From positions 184,061-248,060 of the forward strand of contig JAFXFN010000018.1 in assembly GCA_017520505.1 (NCBI GenBank): a DNA stretch of 64,000 nt, written 5' to 3'. Of this stretch, positions 10,338-60,254 are shown piece after piece. The first letter of the stretch is position 1. Each line of letters opens with the position of its first letter. Position numbers and translations under genes: made by a program. A model generated the notes under the pieces. That model was not told the DNA's origin. It saw only the letters and a program-made list of their open reading frames with translations, and ran no database searches. This DNA comes from Clostridia bacterium (GTDB lineage: Bacteria > Bacillota > Clostridia > Oscillospirales > CAG-272).

Positions 10338-11615
10338 TTATTTAAGTGCTTTGAGCGCTGTCTGTCCGATATCCGAACGCATATGCTTCTTTTCGAAATT
10401 TATCATTTCTGCGCCCTCATAAGCCTTTTTAATTGCATTTTCAAGCGTGTCAGCGACCGCTGTAACACCGAGAACACGACCGCCTGAGGTCAGTATTTCA
10501 CCGTTCTCGGAAAGCTTCGTGCCTGCGTGGTAAACTGTAACGTTATCAAGAGTGTCAACTTTTCCGAAGTCGATTACCTTACCCGTTTCGTATTTTTTCG
10601 GATAACCGCCCGATGCGACTACCACACAGCAAGCACAGCCACCATCAAACTCAACGTTTATTTCATCAAGTCTTTCATCCTCGACCGCCTTCATAATTTC
10701 AAAAAGATCGGTTTTCAAAAGCGGTAAAACGACCTGTGTTTCGGGATCTCCGAAACGGCAGTTGTATTCAATCACGTACGGCTTGCCGTCGCATATCATA
10801 AGCCCGAAGTAAAGACAGCCTTTAAAGGTTCTTCCCTCTTTCTTCATCGCTTCAATAGTCGGGATGAATATTTCCTTCATACAGACATCGGCAACGTCGG
10901 GTGTATAATAGGGGTTAGGTGCTATCGTACCCATTCCGCCCGTGTTGTCACCCTTGTCATTATCAAGCGCACGCTTGTGGTCCATAGACGAAACCATAGG
11001 AACAACTGTCTTACCGTCGGTAAACGCCAAAACGGAAACCTCAACACCCTTCAAAAACTGTTCAATTACGATATTTGAACCGCTTTCGCCGAATATTTTA
11101 TCCTCCATCATTGAAATGACAGCCGCTTTTGCAGAATCAAAATTTTCTGCAATTACAACACCTTTTCCGAGAGCAAGACCGTCAGCCTTGATAACTATCG
11201 GATATGATGACTTTTCAAGATAATCGATGGCTGACTTCTTATCGGTAAACACCTCATAGAATGCTGTGGGTATTCCGTATTTCTTCATAAGGTCCTTTGA
11301 AAAGACCTTACTACCCTCTATTATTGCGGCATCCGCACACGGACCGAAGCATTTGATGCCGACCTTGTGAAGTGCATCAACAGCACCCAAAACAAGCGGA
11401 TCGTCGGGTGCTACCACCGCAAAATCTATTTTATTTTCGGTAGCAAATTTAACGATGCCGTCAATATCCTTTGCGCCTATATTTACACATTCCGCATCAC
11501 GTGATATACCGCCGTTACCGGGAAGTGCGTAAAGCTTCGTTATTTCTTTGTTTTCCTTGAGCTTTTTTATAATCGTATGCTCACGGCCGCCGCCGCCTAC
11601 AACAAGTACGTTCAT
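10338..11615 (-). CDS. purD: Phosphoribosylamine--glycine ligase
   Basis: The N-terminus MNVLVVGGGGREHTI... and the ATP-grasp core are the canonical PurD pattern. Confidence 0.93.
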   Translation of the reverse strand: MNVLVVGGGGREHTIIKKLKENKEITKLYALPGNGGISRDAECVNIGAKDIDGIVKFATENKIDFAVVAPDDPLVLGAVDALHKVGIKCFGPCADAAIIEGSKVFSKDLMKKYGIPTAFYEVFTDKKSAIDYLEKSSYPIVIKADGLALGKGVVIAENFDSAKAAVISMMEDKIFGESGSNIVIEQFLKGVEVSVLAFTDGKTVVPMVSSMDHKRALDNDKGDNTGGMGTIAPNPYYTPDVADVCMKEIFIPTIEAMKKEGRTFKGCLYFGLMICDGKPYVIEYNCRFGDPETQVVLPLLKTDLFEIMKAVEDERLDEINVEFDGGCACCVVVASGGYPKKYETGKVIDFGKVDTLDNVTVYHAGTKLSENGEILTSGGRVLGVTAVADTLENAIKKAYEGAEMINFEKKHMRSDIGQTALKALK

Positions 11616-50916: not shown

Positions 50917-51794
50917 ATGCCAAAACTCACAGATATATCATACGTCAAAAAACTGATGGAAGAAAACGGTCTTACATTTTTAAAAAAATACGGTCAGAAT
51001 TTTCTTATTAACGAGAGCGTGCCTTTAAGAACTGCAGAAATGTGTGAGGATGACACATCCTGCGGTGTTATAGAAATAGGTCCCGGAATCGTACACTTAC
51101 CTCAAAGCTTGCCGAAAGATTCAAAAAGGTCGTGGCAATAGAGATCGATACAAGACTTATCCCCGTGCTTGATACGACACTTGCCGAATACGATAATGTA
51201 ACCGTCATAAACGGTGACGTTATGGACTTTGATATAAATGACCTTATAAATGAACATTTCGAGGGAATGGACGTTTGCGTGTGCGCAAATCTTCCCTACT
51301 ACATAACAACACCCATCGTTATGAAGCTTCTGGAATCCTCTGCAAGGCTCAAAAGCATAACCATACTTATACAAAAAGAGGTTGCGGACAGACTTTGCGC
51401 AAAGGCAGGAAGCGCCGAATACGGCGCAATAACGGCATCTGTTGCATATTATGCATAGGCGAAAAAGCTGTTTAACGTATCGGCAGGCTCGTTTATGCCC
51501 GCACCCAAGGTAGATTCCACCGTTGTCAAGCTGTCGCTTTACCCCGAAAAACCCGTAAAGCCGCAAAATGAAGAGCTGATGTTCAAAATAATAAAGGCGG
51601 CATTTTTACAAAGAAGAAAAACACTTTCAAATGCCGTTTCAAACACAGTAGGCATTTCAAAATCAACCGTCGGCGATATTCTTGAAGAAATGAACCTTTC
51701 ACGTGACATAAGAGGCGAAAAGCTTTCTATATCCGAATTTGCACAATTTTCCGACATTTTAATCACGTATATGAAAAATTCCTCCGACACATAA
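50917..51794 (+). pseudogene. rsmA: 16S rRNA (adenine1518/1519-N6)-dimethyltransferase RsmA/KsgA, disrupted by a 1-nt deletion and an in-frame TAG
   Basis: Three collinear ORF fragments carry KsgA sequence. Frame 1 reads ...EIGPGIVHLP...*, while frame 0 from 51090 reads (R)TLTSKLAERFKKVVAIEID. Adding one G at about 51091 restores GPGIGTLT. A TAG at 51456-51458 interrupts ...SVAYYA*AKKLFNVSAGSFMPAPKVDS. Confidence 0.8.
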
Positions 51795-51812
51795 TATTGT
51801 CGGAGGTTTTTT

Positions 51813-52088
51813 ATGCGGTTATTCGTTATTTTATTTACTCTTATATTTTTATTTTCGCTTACAGGGTGCAAAAACAAGTCCTCGGACATCGACGGACAGT
51901 GGCAACGCTTTGACACCGTGTGGAAATTTGAAAACGGCAAAGCACATATAAACGGAACAGAATATGAATTTTCTACAGACGGTGAAAAATTATTTCTAAA
52001 AAACAAAGTCAGACAAGTAGAGATACCGTATACGCAAAACGGTAACATGCTTGAAATAAACGGATCTAAATTCATCAGAAAAAACTGA
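51813..52088 (+). CDS. Small lipoprotein, function unknown
   Basis: Lipobox LFSLTGC after a hydrophobic signal. 91 aa. Confidence 0.55.
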   Translation: MRLFVILFTLIFLFSLTGCKNKSSDIDGQWQRFDTVWKFENGKAHINGTEYEFSTDGEKLFLKNKVRQVEIPYTQNGNMLEINGSKFIRKN

Positions 52089-52276
52089 CAGTATTACCCG
52101 AAAATAATTTACTTTTTTATGAAGAAATTTAACATCAAATGTAAGAAATAAAAAATTGTTGCGGGTAATATTGTATATATTAGAAATTTAATTTATTCTT
52201 AATCATTTCTCTTCTTGAAACTTAATACTATGTATGGTACAGTTTTAAAAAAAGATGTAGATGTAAAGGTAACACA

Positions 52277-54268
52277 ATGACTGATAGCATTAAACAGAAA
52301 GACTTTAAATTGCCCGGAGTTATTTACATTGCTCTGTGTATAATATATATGGAAGTTCTCGTGAAGTTATTCACACACAACACGTTTTTCAACATAGGAC
52401 TTTTGTTCATGCCGATATTTTCGTTTGCAACTTCATTTATCATATACGGATTTTCATTCCTTTTTAAAGAAAAAAACAGGCGCCTGTTTGTCGGCGGTTG
52501 CATTTGCCTTTTGCTGGTACTTTTTGCAACACAGACGATATACCACCGTTTTTTCAACAGGTATCTTATCGTTTATTCCATAACCGGCGGCGGCATAGGT
52601 CAGGTGCTTTCGGGAGATATTGCAAGAAATACTCTCAGCGCCGTTTTGATATCAACACCGCTTGTGCTCGCACTTGCCGTACCAACGGTCATTACATTTA
52701 TTTTTTATGACAAAATAACAGTATGTAAGGTGCCGAACAAAAAATGGTACATTTATCTTGTACCAACGGTAATATTACATATTACAGCTTTGAGCGTAAT
52801 ATCCCTGATTCCGTCAACATCGGTAATTCATTCGGGGCTTTTTGACCCCAATCACTCCATTGAAAGCTTCGGTGTACTTTATACCGAGGTGCTCGATATT
52901 AAATACAACATATTGAACTTCCCCCAAAAGCTTGTTATAGAAGACGAGGATGACTCGCAACTTGTGCAGTCCTCCGCATACAATATTTCAAATTTCGACT
53001 TTGAAAAGCTTTATGAAAATGAAGAAGACGAAACGCTGAAGACCATGCATAAATATTTCAGCGAAAAATCGCCCACGCATCAGAATGAATATACGGGAAT
53101 GTACAAGGGGTATAACCTCATAACCGTTGTAGCCGAAGCCTTTTCACCGTATGCTATAAGCGAGGAGCTTACACCTACGCTGTATAAAATGAAGACTGAC
53201 GGTTTTGATTTTACAAGCTTCTACACACCCATCTGGGGTGTTTCAACGTCAGACGGTGAGTATATAGTGTCAACAGGGCTTATACCGAAGTCGGGGGTAT
53301 GGAGCTTTTACGAATCCTCCGAAAATTATATGCCGTACTGTCTTGGCAATATGTTCCGTGCTGATGGGGTAAAAAACGTTTATGCTTACCATAACAACAG
53401 CTATACATATTACCGCCGTGACCTTTCGCATACTAATATAGGATATAACTACAAGGCATTGGGCAACGGTGTCGAAAAATACGTTGAAAACGTTTGGCCG
53501 CAATCCGATCTCGAAATGGTAAGCGGCTCTGTATCGGATTACATAAGTTCCAATGAGCGTTTTCATGCCTACTATATGACCGTAAGCGGTCATCTTGAAT
53601 ATGAAAAAGACAAAAATGCAATGGCATCAAAAAACTGGGAGTATGTCAAGGATCTGAAGTGCAGTGAGCAGCTTAAAGGATACTACGCCTGTAACATAGA
53701 GCTTGACCGTGCAATGGAAAAGCTGCTTTCCGAGTTAGAAAAAGCCGGAGTCGCCGACAAGACCGTAATTATGATAACCCCTGACCACTATCCATACGGA
53801 CTTGAGGCGGATATTGGTGATGAATATTCAGTATGGCGTGAGATATTAGGACGTGATGTGGAAACGGAATTCGAGCTATACAAGAGCTGTCTTTTGCTCT
53901 ACTGTCCTTCGACAAAAAATGCGCCGACGGTTGAGAAGCCCTGTTATTCAGCGGATATTTTGCCGACGCTTTTGAACCTTTTCGGATTTGAATACGATTC
54001 ACGCTTGCTTATGGGAAGTGATATTCTTTCTCAAAGCGAAGGACTTGCCGTAATGTCAAATCACTCGTTTATAAGCGAGCTCGGAAGGTATAATGCAACG
54101 ACCGAGGAATTTATTCCGAATGACGAAAACACCTTCGTATCAGAGGAAGAAAAGGAAGAATACATACAGGACATGAACTCAAGAATAAATAATATTTTCA
54201 AAATATCCGCAAAAATACTTGAAACCGATTATTACGGATATGTTTTGAGGGATAATAATGCAAATTAA
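52277..54268 (+). CDS. LtaS-type (sulfatase-fold) polytopic membrane phosphotransferase
   Basis: N-terminal multi-TM region followed by an extracytoplasmic alkaline-phosphatase/sulfatase-fold domain. The candidate nucleophile context is WGVSTSDGEY. Confidence 0.7.
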   Translation: MTDSIKQKDFKLPGVIYIALCIIYMEVLVKLFTHNTFFNIGLLFMPIFSFATSFIIYGFSFLFKEKNRRLFVGGCICLLLVLFATQTIYHRFFNRYLIVYSITGGGIGQVLSGDIARNTLSAVLISTPLVLALAVPTVITFIFYDKITVCKVPNKKWYIYLVPTVILHITALSVISLIPSTSVIHSGLFDPNHSIESFGVLYTEVLDIKYNILNFPQKLVIEDEDDSQLVQSSAYNISNFDFEKLYENEEDETLKTMHKYFSEKSPTHQNEYTGMYKGYNLITVVAEAFSPYAISEELTPTLYKMKTDGFDFTSFYTPIWGVSTSDGEYIVSTGLIPKSGVWSFYESSENYMPYCLGNMFRADGVKNVYAYHNNSYTYYRRDLSHTNIGYNYKALGNGVEKYVENVWPQSDLEMVSGSVSDYISSNERFHAYYMTVSGHLEYEKDKNAMASKNWEYVKDLKCSEQLKGYYACNIELDRAMEKLLSELEKAGVADKTVIMITPDHYPYGLEADIGDEYSVWREILGRDVETEFELYKSCLLLYCPSTKNAPTVEKPCYSADILPTLLNLFGFEYDSRLLMGSDILSQSEGLAVMSNHSFISELGRYNATTEEFIPNDENTFVSEEEKEEYIQDMNSRINNIFKISAKILETDYYGYVLRDNNAN

Positions 54269-55811
54269 CCTACTTTTTACGATAGATGAAAAGTACATAT
54301 CACCGCTTGTAGGTGCACTCGATTCATTTTACAAGGCTCACAAGGGTATAAAAACGAAGGTATTTATTGCACACTCTTCAATACCGAACGGTGAATTTGA
54401 CAAACTGCAAGAAAGATTTTCTCCGTTCGATGCGGAAATAATAAGTGTAAAAATAACAGAAAGATGGTTTTCGGATACACCGGTATTGGAACGGTTGCCC
54501 GAAGAATCGTTCTACAGACTTTTATCCTTTGACTATTTACCGAAGGACATTGACAAATGCCTTTACCTTGATCCGGATATTTTCATAAATAAACCCGTCA
54601 CAGAGCTTTATAATATGAATCTTGACGGCAAGTATCTTGCCGCGGCAAGCCATACATACGGAATAAAAAGCACCCTTAACAGGATAAGATTGGGTATAAA
54701 GCACCGATATTTCAACTCAGGTGTCATGCTTATGAATCTCGATGAAATAAGACGTGATTTCACCGTACAAAAAGTTATTGACTGCTTAAATGATAATATG
54801 CAGAAGCTCATCATGGGAGATCAAGACCTTGCAAATATTCTGTTCGGTGAAAAATCTGTATCTTTAGACGAGATGATATACAATCTTGACGAGCGTACGT
54901 TTAAGCATAACAGAAAGAAATACAGTCTCGACTGGGTTAAAGAAAATACCGCTGTAATACACTATAACGGAAAATTCAAGCCATGGCTTGACGGATATGA
55001 GGGTGAGCTTGATGTTCTCTATCCGAATGTGCCGTCAAAGGGTGCGGCTCCTAAAACAGATCCCAAAAAAAGAATAAAAACGATTCAAACAATAATCAAG
55101 CTCAAGCCACGCCAAAAAATAGTTATAGCAGGATTTCTTTTTGTTGTCATTTTGTGCATTGTGAGCTATCTGACTGTAGGAAAGGAGCTTATCAAGATCG
55201 TTTCCGATCCTGTCATTTTCCGTTCTTGGCTCGACAGATTCGGAAGCTTTGATGAGCTTGTATTCATTGCCATTCGTTCCGTGCAAACCATTATAAAGTT
55301 TATACCCGCCGAGCCGCTTGAGATAGGTTCAGGATACGCTTGGGGAGCTGTTCCGGGAATGTTATACTGTGTTTTTGCAAATATGATAGGCACGGTATTC
55401 ATATGGGTATTTACGAAAAAATACGGAAGAAAGTTTGTTGAATTTTTCATACCCATAAAACACATCGAAGCATTTTTTACGTTTAAAAATTCTTCTCATA
55501 TATATCTTCTGTTATTTCTTTTCTACCTGATTCCCGGTTCACCCAAGGACGGCTTTACTTATATTGCAGGTCTTCTGCCGATAAAGTTCGTACCATTTAT
55601 GATAGTGACAAACATTGCAAGAATGCCGTCTGTGCTTTCCTCAACAATGTGCGGTGCAACGCTTGCAAATAAAAATTATCTCATATCGGGGCTTATACTG
55701 TTACTTACCGCTGTATTGGCTGTTTTGGGAAGTGTAGCATACGTTTTTTACATTAAGAGAAACAAGAACAAACAAACAGCAACAGACAGCAAGGTTTTGC
55801 AAAAGCTTTGA
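54258..55811 (+). CDS. Fusion protein: GT8 glycosyltransferase (N-terminal) plus TVP38/TMEM64 (DedA-superfamily) membrane domain (C-terminal)
   Basis: GT8 motifs YLDPDIFI (DxD), FNSGVMLMNL and HYNGKFKPW. After a TM segment come the two DedA-type re-entrant motifs FIPAEPLEIGSGYAWG and LIPGSPKDGFTYIAG. The gene overlaps the LtaS-like gene by 11 nt. Confidence 0.7.
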   Translation: MQINLLFTIDEKYISPLVGALDSFYKAHKGIKTKVFIAHSSIPNGEFDKLQERFSPFDAEIISVKITERWFSDTPVLERLPEESFYRLLSFDYLPKDIDKCLYLDPDIFINKPVTELYNMNLDGKYLAAASHTYGIKSTLNRIRLGIKHRYFNSGVMLMNLDEIRRDFTVQKVIDCLNDNMQKLIMGDQDLANILFGEKSVSLDEMIYNLDERTFKHNRKKYSLDWVKENTAVIHYNGKFKPWLDGYEGELDVLYPNVPSKGAAPKTDPKKRIKTIQTIIKLKPRQKIVIAGFLFVVILCIVSYLTVGKELIKIVSDPVIFRSWLDRFGSFDELVFIAIRSVQTIIKFIPAEPLEIGSGYAWGAVPGMLYCVFANMIGTVFIWVFTKKYGRKFVEFFIPIKHIEAFFTFKNSSHIYLLLFLFYLIPGSPKDGFTYIAGLLPIKFVPFMIVTNIARMPSVLSSTMCGATLANKNYLISGLILLLTAVLAVLGSVAYVFYIKRNKNKQTATDSKVLQKL

Positions 55812-55823
55812 AAACACGAAATC

Positions 55824-55861
55824 AAAAGCACTTATGATAGTCGTCATCATAAGTGCTTTTT
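55824..55861. terminator. Bidirectional intrinsic terminator between convergent genes
   Basis: AAAA-GCACTTATGAT-AGTCGTC-ATCATAAGTGC-TTTTT. Confidence 0.8.
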
Positions 55862-55868
55862 CATTACT

Positions 55869-58829
55869 TTATTTTCCGTACACGGATATCTCGTATATTG
55901 AGAAGAAGCCGCCCTCTTTGCCTTCCACTTTTACAAATCTTGCGTTTGTGTCTTTACATTCGTTGATCGTGATGGCACTATACGCAACTTTGTCAAGAGT
56001 CTTCCAGCTTTCGCCGTCATCAGATACCTTAACGGCAAAATTGCCTTTTGCGTTTGATTCCCAATTTATCTTCACCGTCGAAATTTCTTTGATCTCTCCA
56101 AGGTCTACTGTTATCCAATACGGTCCTGACGGTGTGCCCAAAGCACTCCATCTTGTTCCGGTGGAACCGTCTACAGCATATACGGCTTCGCATCCGGCTT
56201 CCTCGCCGCTTACACTCACCTGCTTGTCAAGTGCAAGATTTTCGCCCAAAGCCTCTACCTTTTTAGGTGTTTCCTTGGTGATGATATCAAAGCTTTCCAA
56301 AGGTACGCAAGCGTTCTCCGTATCAAAAACAAGAGCTTCCTCTGACTTTGTTACCGTCTTATCAAATTTGATATCATCCACAGATGCTCCGACAGAAAAT
56401 CTGTAATCACCCTTTTCAACGATCCAAGCAGAATCACTTGTAACATACGTCATAAGCTCTTTATCCGTGACCTTGACGGTGATAATTTCTTCGCTTCCCG
56501 CTTCAAGGACTGCTGTTTTTCCATATCCGACAAGCTCTGAAACAGGATGCTCATTTTTACCGTCGGGCTTTGTGACATAGAACTGTACTACTTCACTTCC
56601 CGCCGTATCTCCCGTGTTTTTGATTTTGACGGAAAGTGTTATGGCGTCGTCACCCTCTGTAACGGAAAAATCGGAATATTCAAATGTTGTATATGAAAGT
56701 CCGTAACCGAATTCATACGCTGTATCGATATTGAACGTTTTATAATAACGGTAGCCTACGTATATATCATCATAATAAACCGTTTCGGTCGTATTTCCGG
56801 GGAAATATTCAGAACACGGTGTATCCGAATACAACATAGGCCAAGTTGATGTGAGCTTACCCGACGGATTTACTCTGCCTGTCAAAATATCCGCTGCCGA
56901 GTTACCTATCTGCTCCCCTGCAAGACCTATATAAAGAATTGCGTCTGCCATATCTCTCCACGATGCAACCTCAATGGGATTACCCGTGTTTATAAGAACG
57001 ATAACCCTTTTGCCCTTTGCGTGAAATTCCTCGGAAATATATTTAAGAGTATCTTCTTCCACCTTATTAAGTCTGAAGTCGCCTCGTCTGTCCGTATGGT
57101 CAGCACCCTCCATCGTCATTCTCGACACGGTGAAGACAGCATATTCCGATTCTTCTGCCGCTTTCTTGGCGATATCACGTGTAATTACCACCTCAAGCTT
57201 ATCGTCCGTGGGATTCGCTTCGGGAGTGAGCACGTGCGGATGTCTTTTACACTTTGAATAAAGCGATGCAACATCATCATTTACCGTTATACCGTCAGCA
57301 TTTTTGAGTCCGTTGTAAACGGTTGTCACACCTGCTATCTTAACAGAGCCTGCGCCATATCCTCCGTGCTCCGTAACGTAAGAAGCATTTCCGAATACCG
57401 CAACAGACGTGTTGTTTATGGGCAATGTTTTTCCGTCATTCTTAAGAAGCACCATTCCCTCAGCACCTGCTCCTCTTACAGCGGTTATTTTCTCGCTTCT
57501 CTTTCTGGGCTGACCGGGGAATCTTTCATCGGAAAAGTCGGCACCCGTTTTTACAATAAGCTCAAGAACGTTTTTACAACAGCTGTTGAGATTTTCCGTC
57601 TTGATATTTCTTGATCTTACAAGCGCTATAATTTCCTTTACATCTGCTTTAACGTCTTTTGAACCGCAGTACATATCATTGCCTGCGTTTATCATTCCGT
57701 CTCTTGAGCCGCCTGCTTCCCAGTCGCTGAGAACACAGCCGTCAAAGCCGAATTCATTTCTGAGTATGGACAAAAGATCTTTACAAGTAGATGTATACTT
57801 ACCGTTTATTTTATTATACGACGTCATCACCGTATACGGATCTGAATTTTCAACAGCATAGCCAAACGCTTTCAAATACATCTCACGAAGGGCACGCTCC
57901 GTCACCTTTGACGATACCGAGCCTCTTGCCGTTTCCTGATTGTTTGCTGCAAAATGCTTTAAAGAAACGCCGACACCCTTGGACTGAATACCAAGTGTAT
58001 ATGCGCTTGCCATCATACCCGTGAGGTACGGATCCTCGGAGAAATACTCGAAATTACGTCCGCCGAAAACCTCTTTTTGTATATTCATACCCGGTGCAAG
58101 CAATATTTCAACGCCGAAGCAATCGGCATCATCACCGAGATACTCTGCTATCTTATTTACCGTTGCATCATTCCAGGTAGATGCAAGTGACGTGCCCGTG
58201 GGATATCCTATCGTTGCTATGTCAAGGCGAACACCTGCAGGGCCGTCCGCAAACTGAATAGACGGAACACCGAGACGTTTAATTTCATACGTATTTGCCG
58301 CCATTGCCCTTTCAGCAGGCAAAGATACGAGAAGTGCTGCCTTTTCTTCAAGCGTCATAGCATTTACTACAAGCTGAACGGAATCCTCAGAAAGCTGAAC
58401 AAGACCGTTTTTGAACTGTATCTTCACTTCATCGTCTTCCCCGCCGTTGGGCTTTGATGAAAGTGTCATTGTAAAGTCTGAGGAAAGGAATGATGCCTCC
58501 CCCGTAAACTCAAAAACATCTCCGTTTTTCAAGGATACCTGCTTTGAATCCGTAAATGTATCCGTGCCGTTTGTCAGGGAAAGTGAGATTTCACCGTCAA
58601 AATCGCCCTCTGCAGCAAATTTCGATGAAAATGCACCGTCGTTTACAGTAAACTCTTTTGCCGAAAATACAGCATCGGAGGTTATATTCTCGACACCTGC
58701 ATCAGTTACCTGCTCCGTCGCGGAAATGCTTTCGATATCCGTTGTGACATCATCACCACCCGTACACGATGTAAGCAAAAGCAACGCCATGGCTATAGAA
58801 ATCAATCTGTGCTTTTTCTTTATCTGCAT
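55869..58829 (-). CDS. Glycoside hydrolase family 3 lipoprotein with C-terminal F5/8 type C (discoidin/CBM32-like) domain
   Basis: Lipobox LLLTSCTGG. GH3 motifs (KHFAANNQE, GCVLSDWEA with the nucleophile Asp). FnIII-like domain, then the discoidin pattern AVDGSTGTRWSA...WITVDLG. Confidence 0.85.
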   Translation of the reverse strand: MQIKKKHRLISIAMALLLLTSCTGGDDVTTDIESISATEQVTDAGVENITSDAVFSAKEFTVNDGAFSSKFAAEGDFDGEISLSLTNGTDTFTDSKQVSLKNGDVFEFTGEASFLSSDFTMTLSSKPNGGEDDEVKIQFKNGLVQLSEDSVQLVVNAMTLEEKAALLVSLPAERAMAANTYEIKRLGVPSIQFADGPAGVRLDIATIGYPTGTSLASTWNDATVNKIAEYLGDDADCFGVEILLAPGMNIQKEVFGGRNFEYFSEDPYLTGMMASAYTLGIQSKGVGVSLKHFAANNQETARGSVSSKVTERALREMYLKAFGYAVENSDPYTVMTSYNKINGKYTSTCKDLLSILRNEFGFDGCVLSDWEAGGSRDGMINAGNDMYCGSKDVKADVKEIIALVRSRNIKTENLNSCCKNVLELIVKTGADFSDERFPGQPRKRSEKITAVRGAGAEGMVLLKNDGKTLPINNTSVAVFGNASYVTEHGGYGAGSVKIAGVTTVYNGLKNADGITVNDDVASLYSKCKRHPHVLTPEANPTDDKLEVVITRDIAKKAAEESEYAVFTVSRMTMEGADHTDRRGDFRLNKVEEDTLKYISEEFHAKGKRVIVLINTGNPIEVASWRDMADAILYIGLAGEQIGNSAADILTGRVNPSGKLTSTWPMLYSDTPCSEYFPGNTTETVYYDDIYVGYRYYKTFNIDTAYEFGYGLSYTTFEYSDFSVTEGDDAITLSVKIKNTGDTAGSEVVQFYVTKPDGKNEHPVSELVGYGKTAVLEAGSEEIITVKVTDKELMTYVTSDSAWIVEKGDYRFSVGASVDDIKFDKTVTKSEEALVFDTENACVPLESFDIITKETPKKVEALGENLALDKQVSVSGEEAGCEAVYAVDGSTGTRWSALGTPSGPYWITVDLGEIKEISTVKINWESNAKGNFAVKVSDDGESWKTLDKVAYSAITINECKDTNARFVKVEGKEGGFFSIYEISVYGK

Positions 58830-58866
58830 TATAAAATCTCCTTATTTGGATAATACCGACGGTCTT

Positions 58867-60159
58867 TTATGCTTTGTTTTTCTTTATTACCTTGTTATAT
58901 ACCAGCAGGAATACACCTGTGGCAAGCGACAATACGAGAGCCGCCGCAAATATATTGCTGTTGGGAATAAATGACGTTGTTCCGTCATTATTCGTAATGA
59001 TCTCTGCATTTGCAAGCACGGTCTTACCTATAAACGGGCCTACGATACCGGGAATAAGAACCTGAGAAAAGATTCGTACGCCCTGAAGCATACCCGCTTT
59101 ACCCTCAGGGATATAGCTTCTTATCTTTGCACCGAATACAGCCATACCGGAAAGATAACCGCACATCATAAGCAGTGAACCTACAAAAACCAACGCTGTA
59201 GATTTAAAGGCGAACAGAAGTATGTATCCGGCAGAAAGCCATACGAGTGAAAATACAGCTGAAATACCGAAGCCTTTTTTATCGTAAAATCTTCCCCAGA
59301 AGGCTGTAACGACAGATGCAAGAATTATTGCGGGTGCCATTATAAGAACGTAGTCCTTCATTCCGAGTGATACTTCGTAATAAATTATAAGGTAGGGCAT
59401 AAATATCTGTATTGATATATTGAACAGAATAAATGCCGCAAGGTAAACGTAAAGCGCAGGATTTGCTTTGATTGTCGAAGGACGGAAGCCGTATATAACC
59501 GTTTTAAAGTATTTTTCATCGGTTTTGACCGTCTTACTGTCATCTATCGTAAATATACCGATGATGCCCATAAGAGTTACGCATACACCGATAATGATGA
59601 ATATAAGCGTCCAGCTTTCGCTTTTGTCAAGATCAAATGCCATAAAACCGCCGAACACGGCAAGGATCGCCACAAGCGGCATCATTGCGTTTACACCCTC
59701 TGCCGCACCGCGGTTGAGGTCGTTGGCGCTTTCTGTAAGCCAAGCGTTGAATGCGGCATCGTTGGCTGTAGAGCCGAAAAACGTCATAACGCAGTCAAGC
59801 ACGACAGTCAGAGTGACACACACCGCAGCGGCTGACGTCACGAATGGGAAAGCTGATAAAATAAGATCTTCTTTTAAGAAAATAAAAGAAAATATCGATG
59901 CACCCCAGAGAATATATCCTCCGCAGATGAACATTTTTCTTTTGCCTATCTTATCGGAAAGCGCACCCATAAACACAGTTGTCAGCGTTGCGCACACAGC
60001 GCTTGCCGCAACCATAAGCGAGATATCCGAGGCACTTGCCGAAAACATCTTGTATATAAATACGTTGAAATACATATTTTCGATGACCCATGCGATCTGT
60101 CCCATAAGTCCGAAAAGTATAAGCGATATCCAAAAACGCCCTGAAAGTTTTTTTGTCAT
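58867..60159 (-). CDS. MFS transporter (probable glycoside/cation symporter)
   Basis: 12-TM profile. I chose the start at 60159 (MTKKLSGRFW..., AAGGAGG upstream) over 60228. It lies 37 nt upstream of the GH3 gene. Confidence 0.75.
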   Translation of the reverse strand: MTKKLSGRFWISLILFGLMGQIAWVIENMYFNVFIYKMFSASASDISLMVAASAVCATLTTVFMGALSDKIGKRKMFICGGYILWGASIFSFIFLKEDLILSAFPFVTSAAAVCVTLTVVLDCVMTFFGSTANDAAFNAWLTESANDLNRGAAEGVNAMMPLVAILAVFGGFMAFDLDKSESWTLIFIIIGVCVTLMGIIGIFTIDDSKTVKTDEKYFKTVIYGFRPSTIKANPALYVYLAAFILFNISIQIFMPYLIIYYEVSLGMKDYVLIMAPAIILASVVTAFWGRFYDKKGFGISAVFSLVWLSAGYILLFAFKSTALVFVGSLLMMCGYLSGMAVFGAKIRSYIPEGKAGMLQGVRIFSQVLIPGIVGPFIGKTVLANAEIITNNDGTTSFIPNSNIFAAALVLSLATGVFLLVYNKVIKKNKA

Positions 60160-60186
60160 ATTAATATCCTCCTTGTTAATATAGCA

Positions 60187-60215
60187 ATTATACAGCATAT
60201 TTCGTGATATTGCAA
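60187..60215 (-). promoter_or_regulatory. Sigma-A promoter of the MFS-GH3 operon
   Basis: Minus strand TTGCAA (60215-60210), 17 nt, TATAAT (60192-60187). Confidence 0.6.
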
Positions 60216-60254
60216 TAAAAAAAATCAATTTTAATATATTTTTTCATCAAATTA

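What the first reader, a model, noticed from the sequence alone, without database searches (positions are those of the whole stretch)
52277..55811. LtaS-type transferase translationally coupled to a GT8 glycosyltransferase fused to a TVP38/DedA domain
The second gene joins a cytoplasmic GT8 domain (DxD LDPD, HYNGKFKPW) to a C-terminal TVP38/TMEM64 membrane domain with both DedA-type re-entrant motifs. Its start overlaps the stop of an LtaS-like polytopic sulfatase-fold enzyme by 11 nt. DedA-superfamily proteins have been implicated in flipping or recycling lipid carriers such as undecaprenyl phosphate. LtaS-type enzymes act on the outer face. Together the pair looks like a compact 'glycosylate inside, flip, transfer outside' module for a glycolipid or (lipo)teichoic-acid-like polymer. 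I am not aware of a characterised GT8-DedA fusion.
Basis: inference. Interest (0 to 1): 0.6.

Follow-up and report, generated by a model that had tools for sequence, protein, structure and literature searches.

The report
Sugar-transferase/lipid-flippase fusion beside LtaS-like enzyme
An uncultured gut Clostridia bacterium carries a real, conserved but unstudied gene that joins a cytoplasmic sugar-adding enzyme to a membrane lipid-flipping domain, next to a lipoteichoic-acid-synthase-like enzyme, so it is a testable candidate for how such bacteria make a sugar-lipid and move it to the outer face of the membrane.

Summary
Two + strand ORFs, 52277-54268 (663 aa) and 54258-55811 (517 aa), overlap by 11 nt. 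The first is an LtaS-family enzyme with all catalytic residues. The second is GT8 fused to a VTT/DedA domain.

The fusion is not an assembly join. More than 200 full-length homologues exist. A second, independent fused clade exists. In more distant relatives (33-45% identity) GT8 and VTT are separate, abutting genes. GT8-VTT coupling is therefore strongly supported.

The LtaS adjacency is not family-wide. It occurs in two branches of the fused clade, in opposite gene orders. LtaS orthologues elsewhere stand alone. More frequent partners are a PgsA/ClsA-like CDP-alcohol phosphatidyltransferase (fused once, adjacent once, nearby four times) and two-component systems. Split relatives sit by Wzy_C ligase-like genes or GT2+GtrA.

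The VTT domain is YdjX/YdjZ (COG0398) type, not the UptA type that flips undecaprenyl phosphate.

Best reading (about 0.4): a make-and-flip glycolipid enzyme feeding outer-face transferases such as LtaS. No paper describing this fusion was found. It is a new variant of the published enzyme-DedA fusion theme. Interest 0.55.

The parts
51813..52088 (+). Small ORF (91 aa) with a lipoprotein-type signal (MRLFVILFTLIFLFSLTGC), directly upstream. Whether it belongs to the unit is uncertain.
   Evidence: ORF. It is conserved next to rsmA in L005, L007 and L033. No Pfam hit is on record.
52215..52243 (+). Promoter-like site (TTGAAA-17-TACAGT with an extended TG) in the 188-nt gap before the LtaS-like gene.
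   Evidence: This is a consensus match only. The region holds fewer such matches than its shuffles, so the evidence is weak.
52277..54268 (+). LtaS-family polytopic transferase (663 aa): five N-terminal hydrophobic segments, then an extracellular sulfatase-fold domain.
53162..53986 (+). Sulfatase-fold catalytic domain (aa 296-570). The predicted Thr nucleophile T324 is encoded at 53246-53248.
   Evidence: Pfam PF00884. Alignment to LtaP and LtaS structures. E287, T324, H372, Y379, R381, H439, D503 and H504 are invariant in 35 homologues.
54247..54251 (+). GAGGG Shine-Dalgarno-like site for the second gene, lying inside the first gene.
   Evidence: Sequence read.
54258..54268 (+). 11-nt overlap between the start of GT8-VTT and the end of the LtaS-like gene.
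54258..55811 (+). GT8-VTT fusion protein (517 aa).
54267..54992 (+). GT8 (GT-A fold, retaining type) domain, aa 4-245. DxD is encoded at 54570-54578, HYNGKFKPW at 54960-54986, and the GDQD motif covers aa 187-190.
   Evidence: Pfam. Invariant columns. Foldseek matches to 3TZT, LgtC and GlyE.
55110..55178 (+). First transmembrane helix (about aa 285-307), preceded by a basic linker (KKRIKTIQTIIKLKPRQK). This corresponds to the N-terminus of the stand-alone VTT proteins in split relatives.
   Evidence: AF2 secondary structure, helix 284-316. N-termini of split VTT genes.
55302..55658 (+). VTT/DedA-superfamily domain (aa 349-467), YdjX/YdjZ (COG0398) type. Conserved PAEPLEIGSGYAWG and YLIPGSPKDGFTY segments mark the two predicted re-entrant regions.
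55824..55860 (.). Bidirectional terminator-like hairpin (15-16 bp stem) between GT8-VTT and the convergent GH3 gene. It marks the 3' end of the unit.

Best explanation
The second gene encodes a 'make-and-flip' membrane enzyme.

1. The cytoplasmic LgtC-like GT8 domain transfers an alpha-linked hexose from a UDP-sugar onto a glycerolipid-anchored acceptor at the inner leaflet. The most likely acceptor is a mono- or diglycosyl-diacylglycerol, or another glycerolipid head group.
2. The fused TVP38/YdjX-type VTT domain moves that lipid to the outer leaflet. It may also equilibrate related glycerolipids such as PG and DAG.
3. In this organism the upstream gene is co-transcribed and probably translationally coupled. 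Its product, an LtaS-family enzyme, then works on the outer face. It would transfer glycerol-phosphate from phosphatidylglycerol onto the exported glycolipid, as a primase or as a polymerase. The pair would be a compact lipoteichoic-acid-type or glycerophosphoglycolipid module.

Shown here: the gene structure, the domains, the catalytic residues, the conservation of GT8-VTT coupling, and the lineage-specific LtaS linkage.

Inferred: the acceptor, the flipped substrate, and the use of that substrate by the LtaS-like enzyme.
For: GT8-VTT coupling:
- At least 120 full-length fused homologues.
- A second fused clade nested among split lineages in a GT8-domain tree of 46 representatives.
- In the 33-45% identity relatives, GT8 (about 272-282 aa) and VTT (about 240-264 aa) are abutting or overlapping separate genes.
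- The split VTT N-terminus corresponds to the fusion linker, which places GT8 in the cytoplasm.

GT8 competence:
- D105/D107, N153, D188-Q189-D190 and H235...K241-P242-W243 are invariant.
- The best structural matches are 3TZT and LgtC. The best NCBIfam match is an LPS alpha-galactosyltransferase. These enzymes act on lipid-anchored glycans at the inner leaflet.

VTT domain:
- It is COG0398 type, the subfamily closest to the eukaryotic phospholipid scramblases (PMC10127716).
- DedA domains fused to lipid-synthesis enzymes have already been read as 'synthesise then flip' (PMC10193950).

Glycerolipid context:
- The PgsA/ClsA-like CDP-alcohol phosphatidyltransferase is fused to GT8-VTT in P0087, 12 nt downstream in L103, and within 3.6-6.6 kb in L008, L010, L014 and L016.
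- UgtP-like GT28, DegV, FakA and PlsY lie nearby in L014. DAG kinase and CdsA lie nearby in L008 and L010.

LtaS link:
- The orthologous LtaS-like gene (60-71% identity) is upstream in W, L001 and L002 and downstream in L012/L013, always 31 nt or less away.
- Its catalytic residues are invariant.
- In split relatives the immediately downstream gene in 27 loci is a Wzy_C protein. This is the family of the pneumococcal LTA ligase TacL, which also needs a glycolipid anchor on the outer leaflet (PMC5727136).
Against: - There is no biochemical evidence. All members come from uncultured MAGs.
- LtaS adjacency is limited to two branches. The LtaS-like family is large and usually stands alone, so it may simply be the housekeeping LTA synthase.
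- GT8 enzymes are not known to make diacylglycerol glycolipids. The known synthases are GT4 and GT28.
- The VTT domain has invariant acidic residues (E352, E355) and K430/D431 in the predicted re-entrant regions. These are absent from E. coli YdjX and YdjZ, so inferring the substrate from COG0398 membership is unsafe.
- PetA shows that DedA clade does not predict substrate (PMC10193950).
- Wzy_C and GT2+GtrA neighbours are equally typical of undecaprenyl-linked pathways.
- The AF2 interdomain geometry is uncertain (pTM 0.60).
Confidence: 0.4

Rival explanations
1. Regulated membrane-lipid remodelling, unrelated to LtaS. GT8-VTT, working with the PgsA/ClsA-like phosphatidyltransferase, makes and exposes a glycosylated phospholipid or glycolipid that changes surface properties under envelope stress. 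This would be analogous to HexRK-HexSDF or MprF. The LtaS-like gene would be the housekeeping LTA synthase that happens to lie alongside in this lineage.
For: - OmpR-type RR+HK genes lie directly downstream in six fused lineages. In L105 they come with a Bce-like FtsX/ABC pair.
- A LytTR-type two-component system lies upstream in 13 split loci.
- The phosphatidyltransferase is the most frequent partner, including a fusion.
- LtaS orthologues stand alone in other genomes.
- HexSDF is a precedent in Clostridia: a glycolipid synthase plus a flippase under a two-component system (PMC10128005).
Against: - The 11-nt overlap with an internal SD, and no terminator between the genes, argue for co-expression with LtaS here.
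- The same orthologous pair has been assembled in the opposite order in L012/L013, which is unlikely without selection.
- The window carries no two-component system or phosphatidyltransferase orthologue.
Confidence: 0.22
2. Undecaprenyl-phosphate-linked pathway. GT8 glycosylates a C55-P or C55-PP-linked intermediate. VTT either translocates it or recycles C55-P. An outer-face enzyme (LtaS-like, Wzy_C or GT-C) transfers the glycan to a polymer.
For: - Split relatives sit next to Wzy_C (27 loci) and next to GT2+GtrA, which are classical C55-P-dependent partners.
- DedA-family UptA flips C55-P (PMC10193950, PMC10127716).
- The family has conserved acidic and basic residues in the re-entrant regions, reminiscent of proton-coupled DedAs.
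Against: - The VTT profile matches YdjX/YdjZ, not DedA. COG0398 proteins are argued not to flip UndP (PMC10127716).
- GT8 enzymes are retaining. To my knowledge, polyprenyl-phosphate sugar synthases are inverting GT2 enzymes.
- The phosphatidyltransferase fusion and the fatty-acid and phospholipid gene context point to glycerolipids.
- LtaS-type enzymes use phosphatidylglycerol, not C55-linked donors (established knowledge of the family).
Confidence: 0.15
3. PG-supply and DAG-recycling device for LTA synthesis. VTT scrambles phosphatidylglycerol outward (the LtaS donor) and diacylglycerol inward. GT8 converts the returned DAG or glycolipid into new anchor. The flipped species would be mainly the phospholipid rather than the GT8 product.
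For: - The PG and DAG flippases of the LTA pathway are unknown, and a DedA protein near pgpP has been proposed for PG (PMC11804483).
- The triple fusion GT8-VTT-PgsA-like followed by LtaS is seen in L012.
- DAG kinase and CdsA lie in the neighbourhood.
- A PgpP-like HAD phosphatase lies near an LtaS orthologue in L096.
Against: - The phosphatidyltransferase scores below the pgsA cut-off (76-91 against 109 bits) and equally resembles ClsA. NCBI names it only as a 'family protein'.
- This reading does not explain GT8-VTT pairs that lack both LtaS and the phosphatidyltransferase nearby (the Wzy_C and GT2/GtrA clades).
Confidence: 0.13
4. The VTT domain is only a membrane anchor. It positions a GT8 that glycosylates a protein or a cytoplasmic or cell-wall precursor, and no lipid is flipped.
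For: - Solved GT8 relatives include the protein glycosyltransferase GlyE.
- No direct evidence exists for lipid transport.
Against: - About 25 invariant residues are concentrated in the VTT motifs across 53 sequences.
- VTT persists as a separate, translationally coupled gene in split relatives.
- There have been two independent fusions.
- A mere anchor would not need a conserved DedA core.
Confidence: 0.07

Closest known systems
DedA-domain fusions to lipid-synthesis enzymes (LPG synthase, CDP-OH phosphatidyltransferase, phospholipase D) described by Roney & Rudner 2023 (PMC10193950)
   Same: A DedA/VTT domain is joined to an enzyme acting on a membrane lipid, which is read as 'synthesise then flip'. 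One relative here (P0087) also carries the CDP-OH phosphatidyltransferase domain.
   Different: The enzyme here is a GT8 glycosyltransferase, which is not among the fusions that paper lists. The VTT domain is COG0398 type. None of these fusions has been tested experimentally.
S. aureus YpfP (GT28) - LtaA (MFS flippase) - LtaS pathway for type I lipoteichoic acid
   Same: The proposed logic is the same: a cytoplasmic glycolipid synthase, a glycolipid flippase, and an outer-face LtaS enzyme with the same catalytic residues.
   Different: GT8 replaces GT28, and a DedA-family domain replaces the MFS transporter. Synthase and flippase are one polypeptide. The LtaS-like protein scores 95 bits against the 970-bit LtaS equivalog cut-off.
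C. difficile HexRK-HexSDF (PMC10128005)
   Same: A Clostridial glycolipid glycosyltransferase encoded together with a putative lipid flippase, under a two-component system. Many GT8-VTT relatives sit next to two-component systems.
   Different: HexS is MGDG-synthase-like and HexF is MprF-flippase-like, encoded as separate genes. No deacetylase is present here. No two-component system is present in this window.
LgtC and WaaI/WaaJ-type GT8 alpha-glycosyltransferases of LOS/LPS core
   Same: The closest characterised GT8 relatives by structure and profile. They share DxD, the D188-Q189 motif and the HxxGxxKPW motif. They act on lipid-anchored glycans at the cytoplasmic face before flipping.
   Different: Only 22-26% identity. 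Those enzymes are peripheral proteins with no fused transporter, and flipping is done by MsbA. The host here is Gram-positive-type Clostridia.
E. coli YdjX/YdjZ (COG0398, TVP38/TMEM64-type DedA proteins)
   Same: The VTT domain aligns over nearly its whole length with both (E 1.5e-16).
   Different: Their function is unknown. This family has extra invariant charged residues (E352, E355, K430) that YdjX and YdjZ lack.

Membership tests
Glycosyltransferase family 8 (PF01501, LgtC-like retaining GT-A) | Profile match above the curated threshold over the whole domain | tested here: met
   136.5 bits against a 24.3-bit cut-off; aa 4-245 cover profile positions 1-251 of 253.
Glycosyltransferase family 8 (PF01501, LgtC-like retaining GT-A) | DxD metal/nucleotide motif, the D-Q motif (LgtC D188/Q189) and the C-terminal HxxGxxKPW motif | tested here: met
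   D105/D107, D188-Q189-D190 and H235/K241/P242/W243 are invariant in 53 sequences.
Glycosyltransferase family 8 (PF01501, LgtC-like retaining GT-A) | GT-A fold superposable on solved GT8 structures | tested here: met
   The AF2 model has pLDDT above 90 over most of aa 1-230. Foldseek matches: 3TZT E 3.9e-15 (TM on target 0.88), LgtC 1G9R E 8.4e-13.
Glycosyltransferase family 8 (PF01501, LgtC-like retaining GT-A) | Retaining transfer from a UDP-sugar; identity of the acceptor | not testable with these tools
   Needs an enzyme assay.
DedA superfamily / VTT domain (PF09335) | Profile match above the curated threshold | tested here: met
   48.7 bits against a 33.9-bit cut-off; profile positions 1-122 of 123.
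DedA superfamily / VTT domain (PF09335) | Two re-entrant helix-loop segments flanked by transmembrane helices | tested here: inconclusive
   AF2 secondary structure shows short broken helices at 351-362 and 430-437, over the conserved P/G-rich motifs. Model coordinates and membrane topology could not be inspected. There is no solved homologue.
COG0398 (YdjX/YdjZ, TVP38/TMEM64) subfamily of DedA | Closer to YdjX/YdjZ than to COG0586 (DedA) or COG1238 (YqaA) representatives | tested here: met
   Family profile against the E. coli paralogues: YdjZ and YdjX E 1.5e-16; DedA E 0.083; YqaA E 0.11.
COG0586 UptA-type undecaprenyl-phosphate flippases | Sequence membership in the DedA/YqjA/UptA clade | tested here: not met
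   No significant match to E. coli DedA. B. subtilis UptA itself was not compared.
LtaS family (polytopic lipoteichoic acid synthase/primase, sulfatase fold) | Extracellular sulfatase-fold domain homologous to eLtaS/LtaP | tested here: met
   PF00884 E 4.6e-14. PDB matches 4UOP E 4.7e-18, 2W8D and 2W5Q.
LtaS family (polytopic lipoteichoic acid synthase/primase, sulfatase fold) | Catalytic Thr nucleophile and Mn ligands (S. aureus E255, T300, D475, H476), plus substrate residues H416 and R356 | tested here: met
   E287, T324, D503, H504, H439 and R381 are invariant in 35 homologues. The W354 equivalent is Y379 and the D349 equivalent is N374, as in Listeria LtaP. The S. aureus residue numbers are from memory.
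LtaS family (polytopic lipoteichoic acid synthase/primase, sulfatase fold) | Five N-terminal transmembrane helices placing the catalytic domain outside | tested here: inconclusive
   Five hydrophobic segments (about aa 13-31, 38-62, 70-88, 120-145, 157-178) were read by eye from the translation. No topology predictor was available. PF27449 LtaS_N is on record for several homologues.
LtaS family (polytopic lipoteichoic acid synthase/primase, sulfatase fold) | NCBIfam LtaS equivalog score (Bacillus/Staphylococcus-type LtaS) | tested here: not met
   95.2 bits against a 970-bit cut-off. It is a family member but not an equivalog, so glycerol-phosphate polymerase activity is not established.
PgsA (CDP-DAG:glycerol-3-phosphate phosphatidyltransferase): the partner gene in relatives | TIGR00560 equivalog cut-off | tested here: not met
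   76-91 bits against a 109.1-bit cut-off. Scores against the ClsA model are equal (79-91 against 240). Sources name it 'CDP-alcohol phosphatidyltransferase family protein'.

The most novel reading that the evidence does not exclude
GT8-VTT is a self-contained glycolipid synthase-flippase. It would be the first COG0398/TVP38-type bacterial DedA protein with a defined substrate. It would also be the missing route by which many Clostridia place glycolipid anchors (and perhaps PG and DAG) on the correct leaflet for LtaS-type and TacL/Wzy_C-type lipoteichoic acid assembly. The module would have been fused at least twice and recombined with different outer-face transferases.
Probability: 0.3. Interest if true: 0.75.

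Novelty: new variant of a known kind. Interest (0 to 1): 0.55.

Why it matters
How glycolipid anchors, phosphatidylglycerol and diacylglycerol cross the membrane during lipoteichoic acid synthesis is known only for staphylococcal LtaA. The PG and DAG flippases are explicitly listed as unknown (PMC11804483).

The COG0398 branch of the DedA superfamily includes the closest bacterial relatives of the human scramblases TMEM41B and VMP1. It has no assigned substrate in bacteria (PMC10127716).

A protein that covalently joins a glycosyltransferase to such a domain names both the likely substrate class and a direct experiment. The family recurs as fused or abutting genes next to LtaS, Wzy_C ligase-like, CDP-alcohol phosphatidyltransferase and stress-sensing two-component genes.

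It would also add a GT8 route to bacterial membrane glycolipids. That would be relevant to the envelope biology and antimicrobial-peptide tolerance of abundant, uncultured gut and rumen Clostridia.

Tried and rejected
- **Assembly join or frameshift: rejected.** At least 120 full-length fused clusters from independent assemblies. Identical architecture on 200-kb contigs.
- **Genome-contig scan with the single protein:** only 4 loci, 2 of them useful. The metagenome scan with alignment A1 made up for it.
- **LtaS-family genes near the 80 metagenome loci:** a family HMM found none.
- **afdb50 fold search:** library unavailable.
- **PDB sequence search with the VTT half:** no meaningful hit. Foldseek against PDB returned only GT8 matches in its top 50.
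- **MFS gene downstream (58867-60228, minus strand) as an LtaA-like flippase:** considered and rejected. It sits with a GH3 glycosidase, is convergent to the pair, and lies beyond the terminator.
- **266-aa Phosphodiest-like protein after GT8-VTT in L106 as a third LtaS-type partner:** rejected. It has no TM segment or signal and no similarity to the LtaS-like protein.
- **Literature searches for GT8/DedA, TVP38/glycosyltransferase and DedA/glycolipid/scramblase:** nothing on this fusion.
- **Inspection of the AF2 model for active-site orientation relative to the membrane:** not possible, because coordinates are not exposed.

Full report
**1. Observation**

The window has two + strand ORFs at exactly the stated coordinates:
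- 52277-54268, 663 aa.
- 54258-55811, 517 aa.

The ATG of the second gene (54258) lies 11 nt before the end of the first gene's TAA stop (54266-54268). A GAGGG site sits 6 nt upstream of that ATG. A strong hairpin at 55824-55860 separates the pair from a convergent GH3 gene. Another hairpin at 51781-51806 follows the upstream rsmA-like gene. The unit is therefore a two-gene operon. It may also include a 91-aa lipoprotein-like ORF at 51813-52088.

Pfam gives three domain hits:
- ORF1: Sulfatase, aa 296-570.
- ORF2: Glyco_transf_8, aa 4-245, E 1.5e-39.
- ORF2: VTT_dom, aa 349-467, E 1.3e-12.

The quoted LDPD and HYNGKFKPW motifs are present and invariant in the family.

**2. The LtaS-like protein**

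- It matches the solved ectodomains of Listeria LtaP and of B. subtilis and S. aureus LtaS (E 5e-18 to 4e-14).
- It has the catalytic set E287, T324, H372, R381, H439, D503 and H504, all invariant in 35 homologues.
- At two substrate-pocket positions it carries N374 and Y379, as LtaP does, rather than the D and W of LtaS. The S. aureus residue numbers are from memory.
- It scores far below the NCBIfam LtaS equivalog cut-off, 95 against 970 bits.
- It belongs to a very large Clostridial family, with 5240 hits at E 1e-10 or better. Sources name it 'LTA synthase family protein' or 'sulfatase-like hydrolase/transferase'.
- Three orthologues at 52-56% identity stand alone, with unrelated neighbours.

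**3. The fusion is real**

- All of the best 120 hits (50-98% identity) are full length and carry both Pfam domains.
- Near-identical copies lie on contigs of 200 kb or more.
- NCBI calls the protein 'VTT domain-containing protein [Clostridia bacterium]'.
- An exhaustive HMMER search of 1.84 billion cluster representatives shows that the close fused family collapses into one 50%-identity cluster. There is one further fused representative at 38% identity. After that come stand-alone GT8 proteins (about 270 aa) and stand-alone VTT proteins (about 240 aa).

**4. GT8-VTT coupling is the conserved core**

A metagenome scan with the family alignment returned 80 loci.
- Relatives at 33-45% identity mostly carry GT8 and VTT as separate genes. 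These abut or overlap, for example a stop and a start sharing position 10816.
- A neighbour-joining tree of 46 non-redundant GT8 domains puts the window in a monophyletic fused clade of 12 representatives.
- The same tree shows a second fused clade (L019, L021, L023, L024, from termite gut) nested among split lineages.
- Two independent fusions plus persistent adjacency are strong evidence that the two activities act together.
- The N-terminus of the split VTT proteins (basic stretch, then TM1) corresponds to the fusion linker. This places GT8 in the cytoplasm.

**5. Partners vary by clade**

In the fused clade:
- The LtaS-like orthologue is directly upstream in the window lineage, in L001 (80% identity; only the tail of the LtaS gene is on the contig) and in L002 (66%).
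- It is directly downstream in L012/L013 (51% identity; LtaS 60% identity).
- L012/L013 encode a triple fusion, GT8-VTT-CDP-alcohol phosphatidyltransferase (P0087, 721 aa).
- The orthologous phosphatidyltransferase is 12 nt downstream in L103. It lies behind an OmpR-type RR+HK pair in L008, L010, L014 and L016.
- L104 and L105 have other OmpR-type two-component systems. In L105 this comes with an FtsX/ABC pair.
- The phosphatidyltransferase scores below the pgsA cut-off and equally resembles ClsA. It is annotated only as a family protein in Ruminococcaceae and Clostridia MAGs.
- Nearby genes include a UgtP-like GT28, DegV, FakA, PlsY, DAG kinase and CdsA.

In split clades:
- The next gene is a Wzy_C/O-antigen-ligase-like protein in 27 loci, often followed by DUF4886.
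- In other loci the pair is preceded by a LytTR-type two-component system and followed by GT2+GtrA. Some of these are flanked by large serine recombinases.

No LtaS-family gene occurs in any of the 80 metagenome loci.

**6. The type of VTT domain**

- A profile of the family's VTT half matches E. coli YdjX and YdjZ (COG0398) at E 1.5e-16. It does not match DedA (COG0586) or YqaA (COG1238).
- Todor et al. argue that COG0398 proteins are unlikely UndP flippases and resemble the eukaryotic scramblases. They do not list a GT8 fusion (PMC10127716).
[quoted passage not shown] They also caution that clade does not predict substrate (PMC10193950).
- This family has invariant E352/E355 and K430/D431 in the predicted re-entrant regions, which YdjX and YdjZ lack. 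Its substrate cannot be read off from subfamily membership.

**7. Mechanism**

The GT8 half keeps every LgtC-type catalytic residue. Structurally it is closest to 3TZT and LgtC, and by profile to an LPS alpha-galactosyltransferase. These enzymes extend lipid-anchored glycans at the inner leaflet before export.

The explanation that accounts for the most observations is a make-and-flip enzyme:
- GT8 adds an alpha-hexose to a glycerolipid-anchored acceptor.
- VTT moves the product outward.
- An outer-face transferase uses it: here the LtaS-like enzyme, elsewhere a TacL-like Wzy_C ligase (PMC5727136).

LtaS-type and TacL-type enzymes share one requirement, a glycolipid anchor in the outer leaflet.

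I put this at about 0.4. The rivals are:
- Two-component-system-regulated membrane remodelling unrelated to LtaS, as in HexSDF (PMC10128005): 0.22.
- A C55-P-linked pathway: 0.15.
- PG supply and DAG recycling for LTA (PMC11804483): 0.13.
- VTT as a mere anchor: 0.07.

Gene structure, domains, residues and neighbourhood statistics are shown here. The acceptor, the flipped lipid and the link to LtaS chemistry are inferred.

**8. Novelty and verdict**

No paper in the searchable library describes a GT8-DedA/VTT fusion or pair. The concept of enzyme-DedA fusions is published, so this is a new variant of a known kind, not a new category.

Its interpretation is partly supported:
- The fusion and the make-flip-use logic stand.
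- The LtaS partnership is specific to two branches, not family-wide.
- The appeal to undecaprenyl-phosphate flipping is weakened.
- The more frequent partners (the phosphatidyltransferase and two-component systems) were missed.

Interest is 0.55. The find gives a concrete, testable candidate for an open question, lipid flipping in LTA and glycolipid biogenesis and the substrate of COG0398 DedAs. It rests entirely on sequence evidence from uncultured organisms.

Noticed in passing
L012:10001-14219 (also L013): Triple fusion GT8-VTT-CDP-alcohol phosphatidyltransferase (P0087, 721 aa). An orthologue of the window's LtaS-like gene (60% identity) follows 31 nt downstream. The gene order is opposite to that in the window.
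   Followed up: yes
L033:35-1489: This contig encodes an rsmA C-terminus matching the window's and a very similar small lipoprotein ORF. After them it carries a stand-alone VTT gene (about 65% identical to the window's VTT half) where the window has LtaS-like plus GT8-VTT. The locus is variable between close relatives.
   Followed up: partly
L035-L064, L077, L088-L095 (e.g. L060:2607-3929): In split GT8/VTT relatives the next gene is a Wzy_C (O-antigen-ligase/TacL-like) membrane protein of about 440 aa in 27 loci. It is often followed by a DUF4886 protein.
   Followed up: partly
L049-L058, L066-L072, L076, L085 (e.g. L052:11649-12944, minus strand): A conserved 432-aa protein with no Pfam hit lies divergently next to split GT8/VTT pairs. 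It has an FHAVTDGTG segment that resembles the HxxxDG motif of condensation/acyltransferase enzymes. GT2 and GtrA genes follow, and a LytTR-type two-component system lies upstream. Some loci are flanked by large serine recombinases, which hints at mobility.
   Followed up: partly
L105:9696-13866: GT8-VTT is followed by an OmpR-type RR, an HK, an FtsX permease and an ABC ATPase. This is a Bce-like antimicrobial-peptide sensing/detoxification arrangement and suggests envelope-stress regulation.
   Followed up: no
L106:9591-10391: A 266-aa cytoplasmic alkaline-phosphatase-superfamily protein (weak Phosphodiest hit) lies 37 nt after GT8-VTT. It has no similarity to the LtaS-like protein.
   Followed up: yes
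L096:11300-11806; L098:5672-6163; L099:10766-11254: Stand-alone orthologues of the LtaS-like protein lie near a PgpP-like HAD phosphatase (faint PGP_phosphatase hit) or near small PAP2 phosphatases. These are possible phosphatidylglycerol or lipid-phosphate links.
   Followed up: no
window 55869-60228 (minus strand): Convergent to the pair are a 986-aa GH3 glycosidase with F5/8 type C domains and an N-terminal lipoprotein-like signal, and an MFS transporter. This looks like a sugar-utilisation unit unrelated to the finding.
   Followed up: partly
window 54258-55811, aa 352, 355, 430, 431, 455: Invariant charged residues lie in the predicted re-entrant regions of the VTT domain: E352/E355 in PAEPLEI, K430/D431 in PGSPKDG, and R455. 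E. coli YdjX and YdjZ have uncharged residues at the E352, E355 and K430 positions. This is a family-specific signature of unknown meaning.
   Followed up: partly
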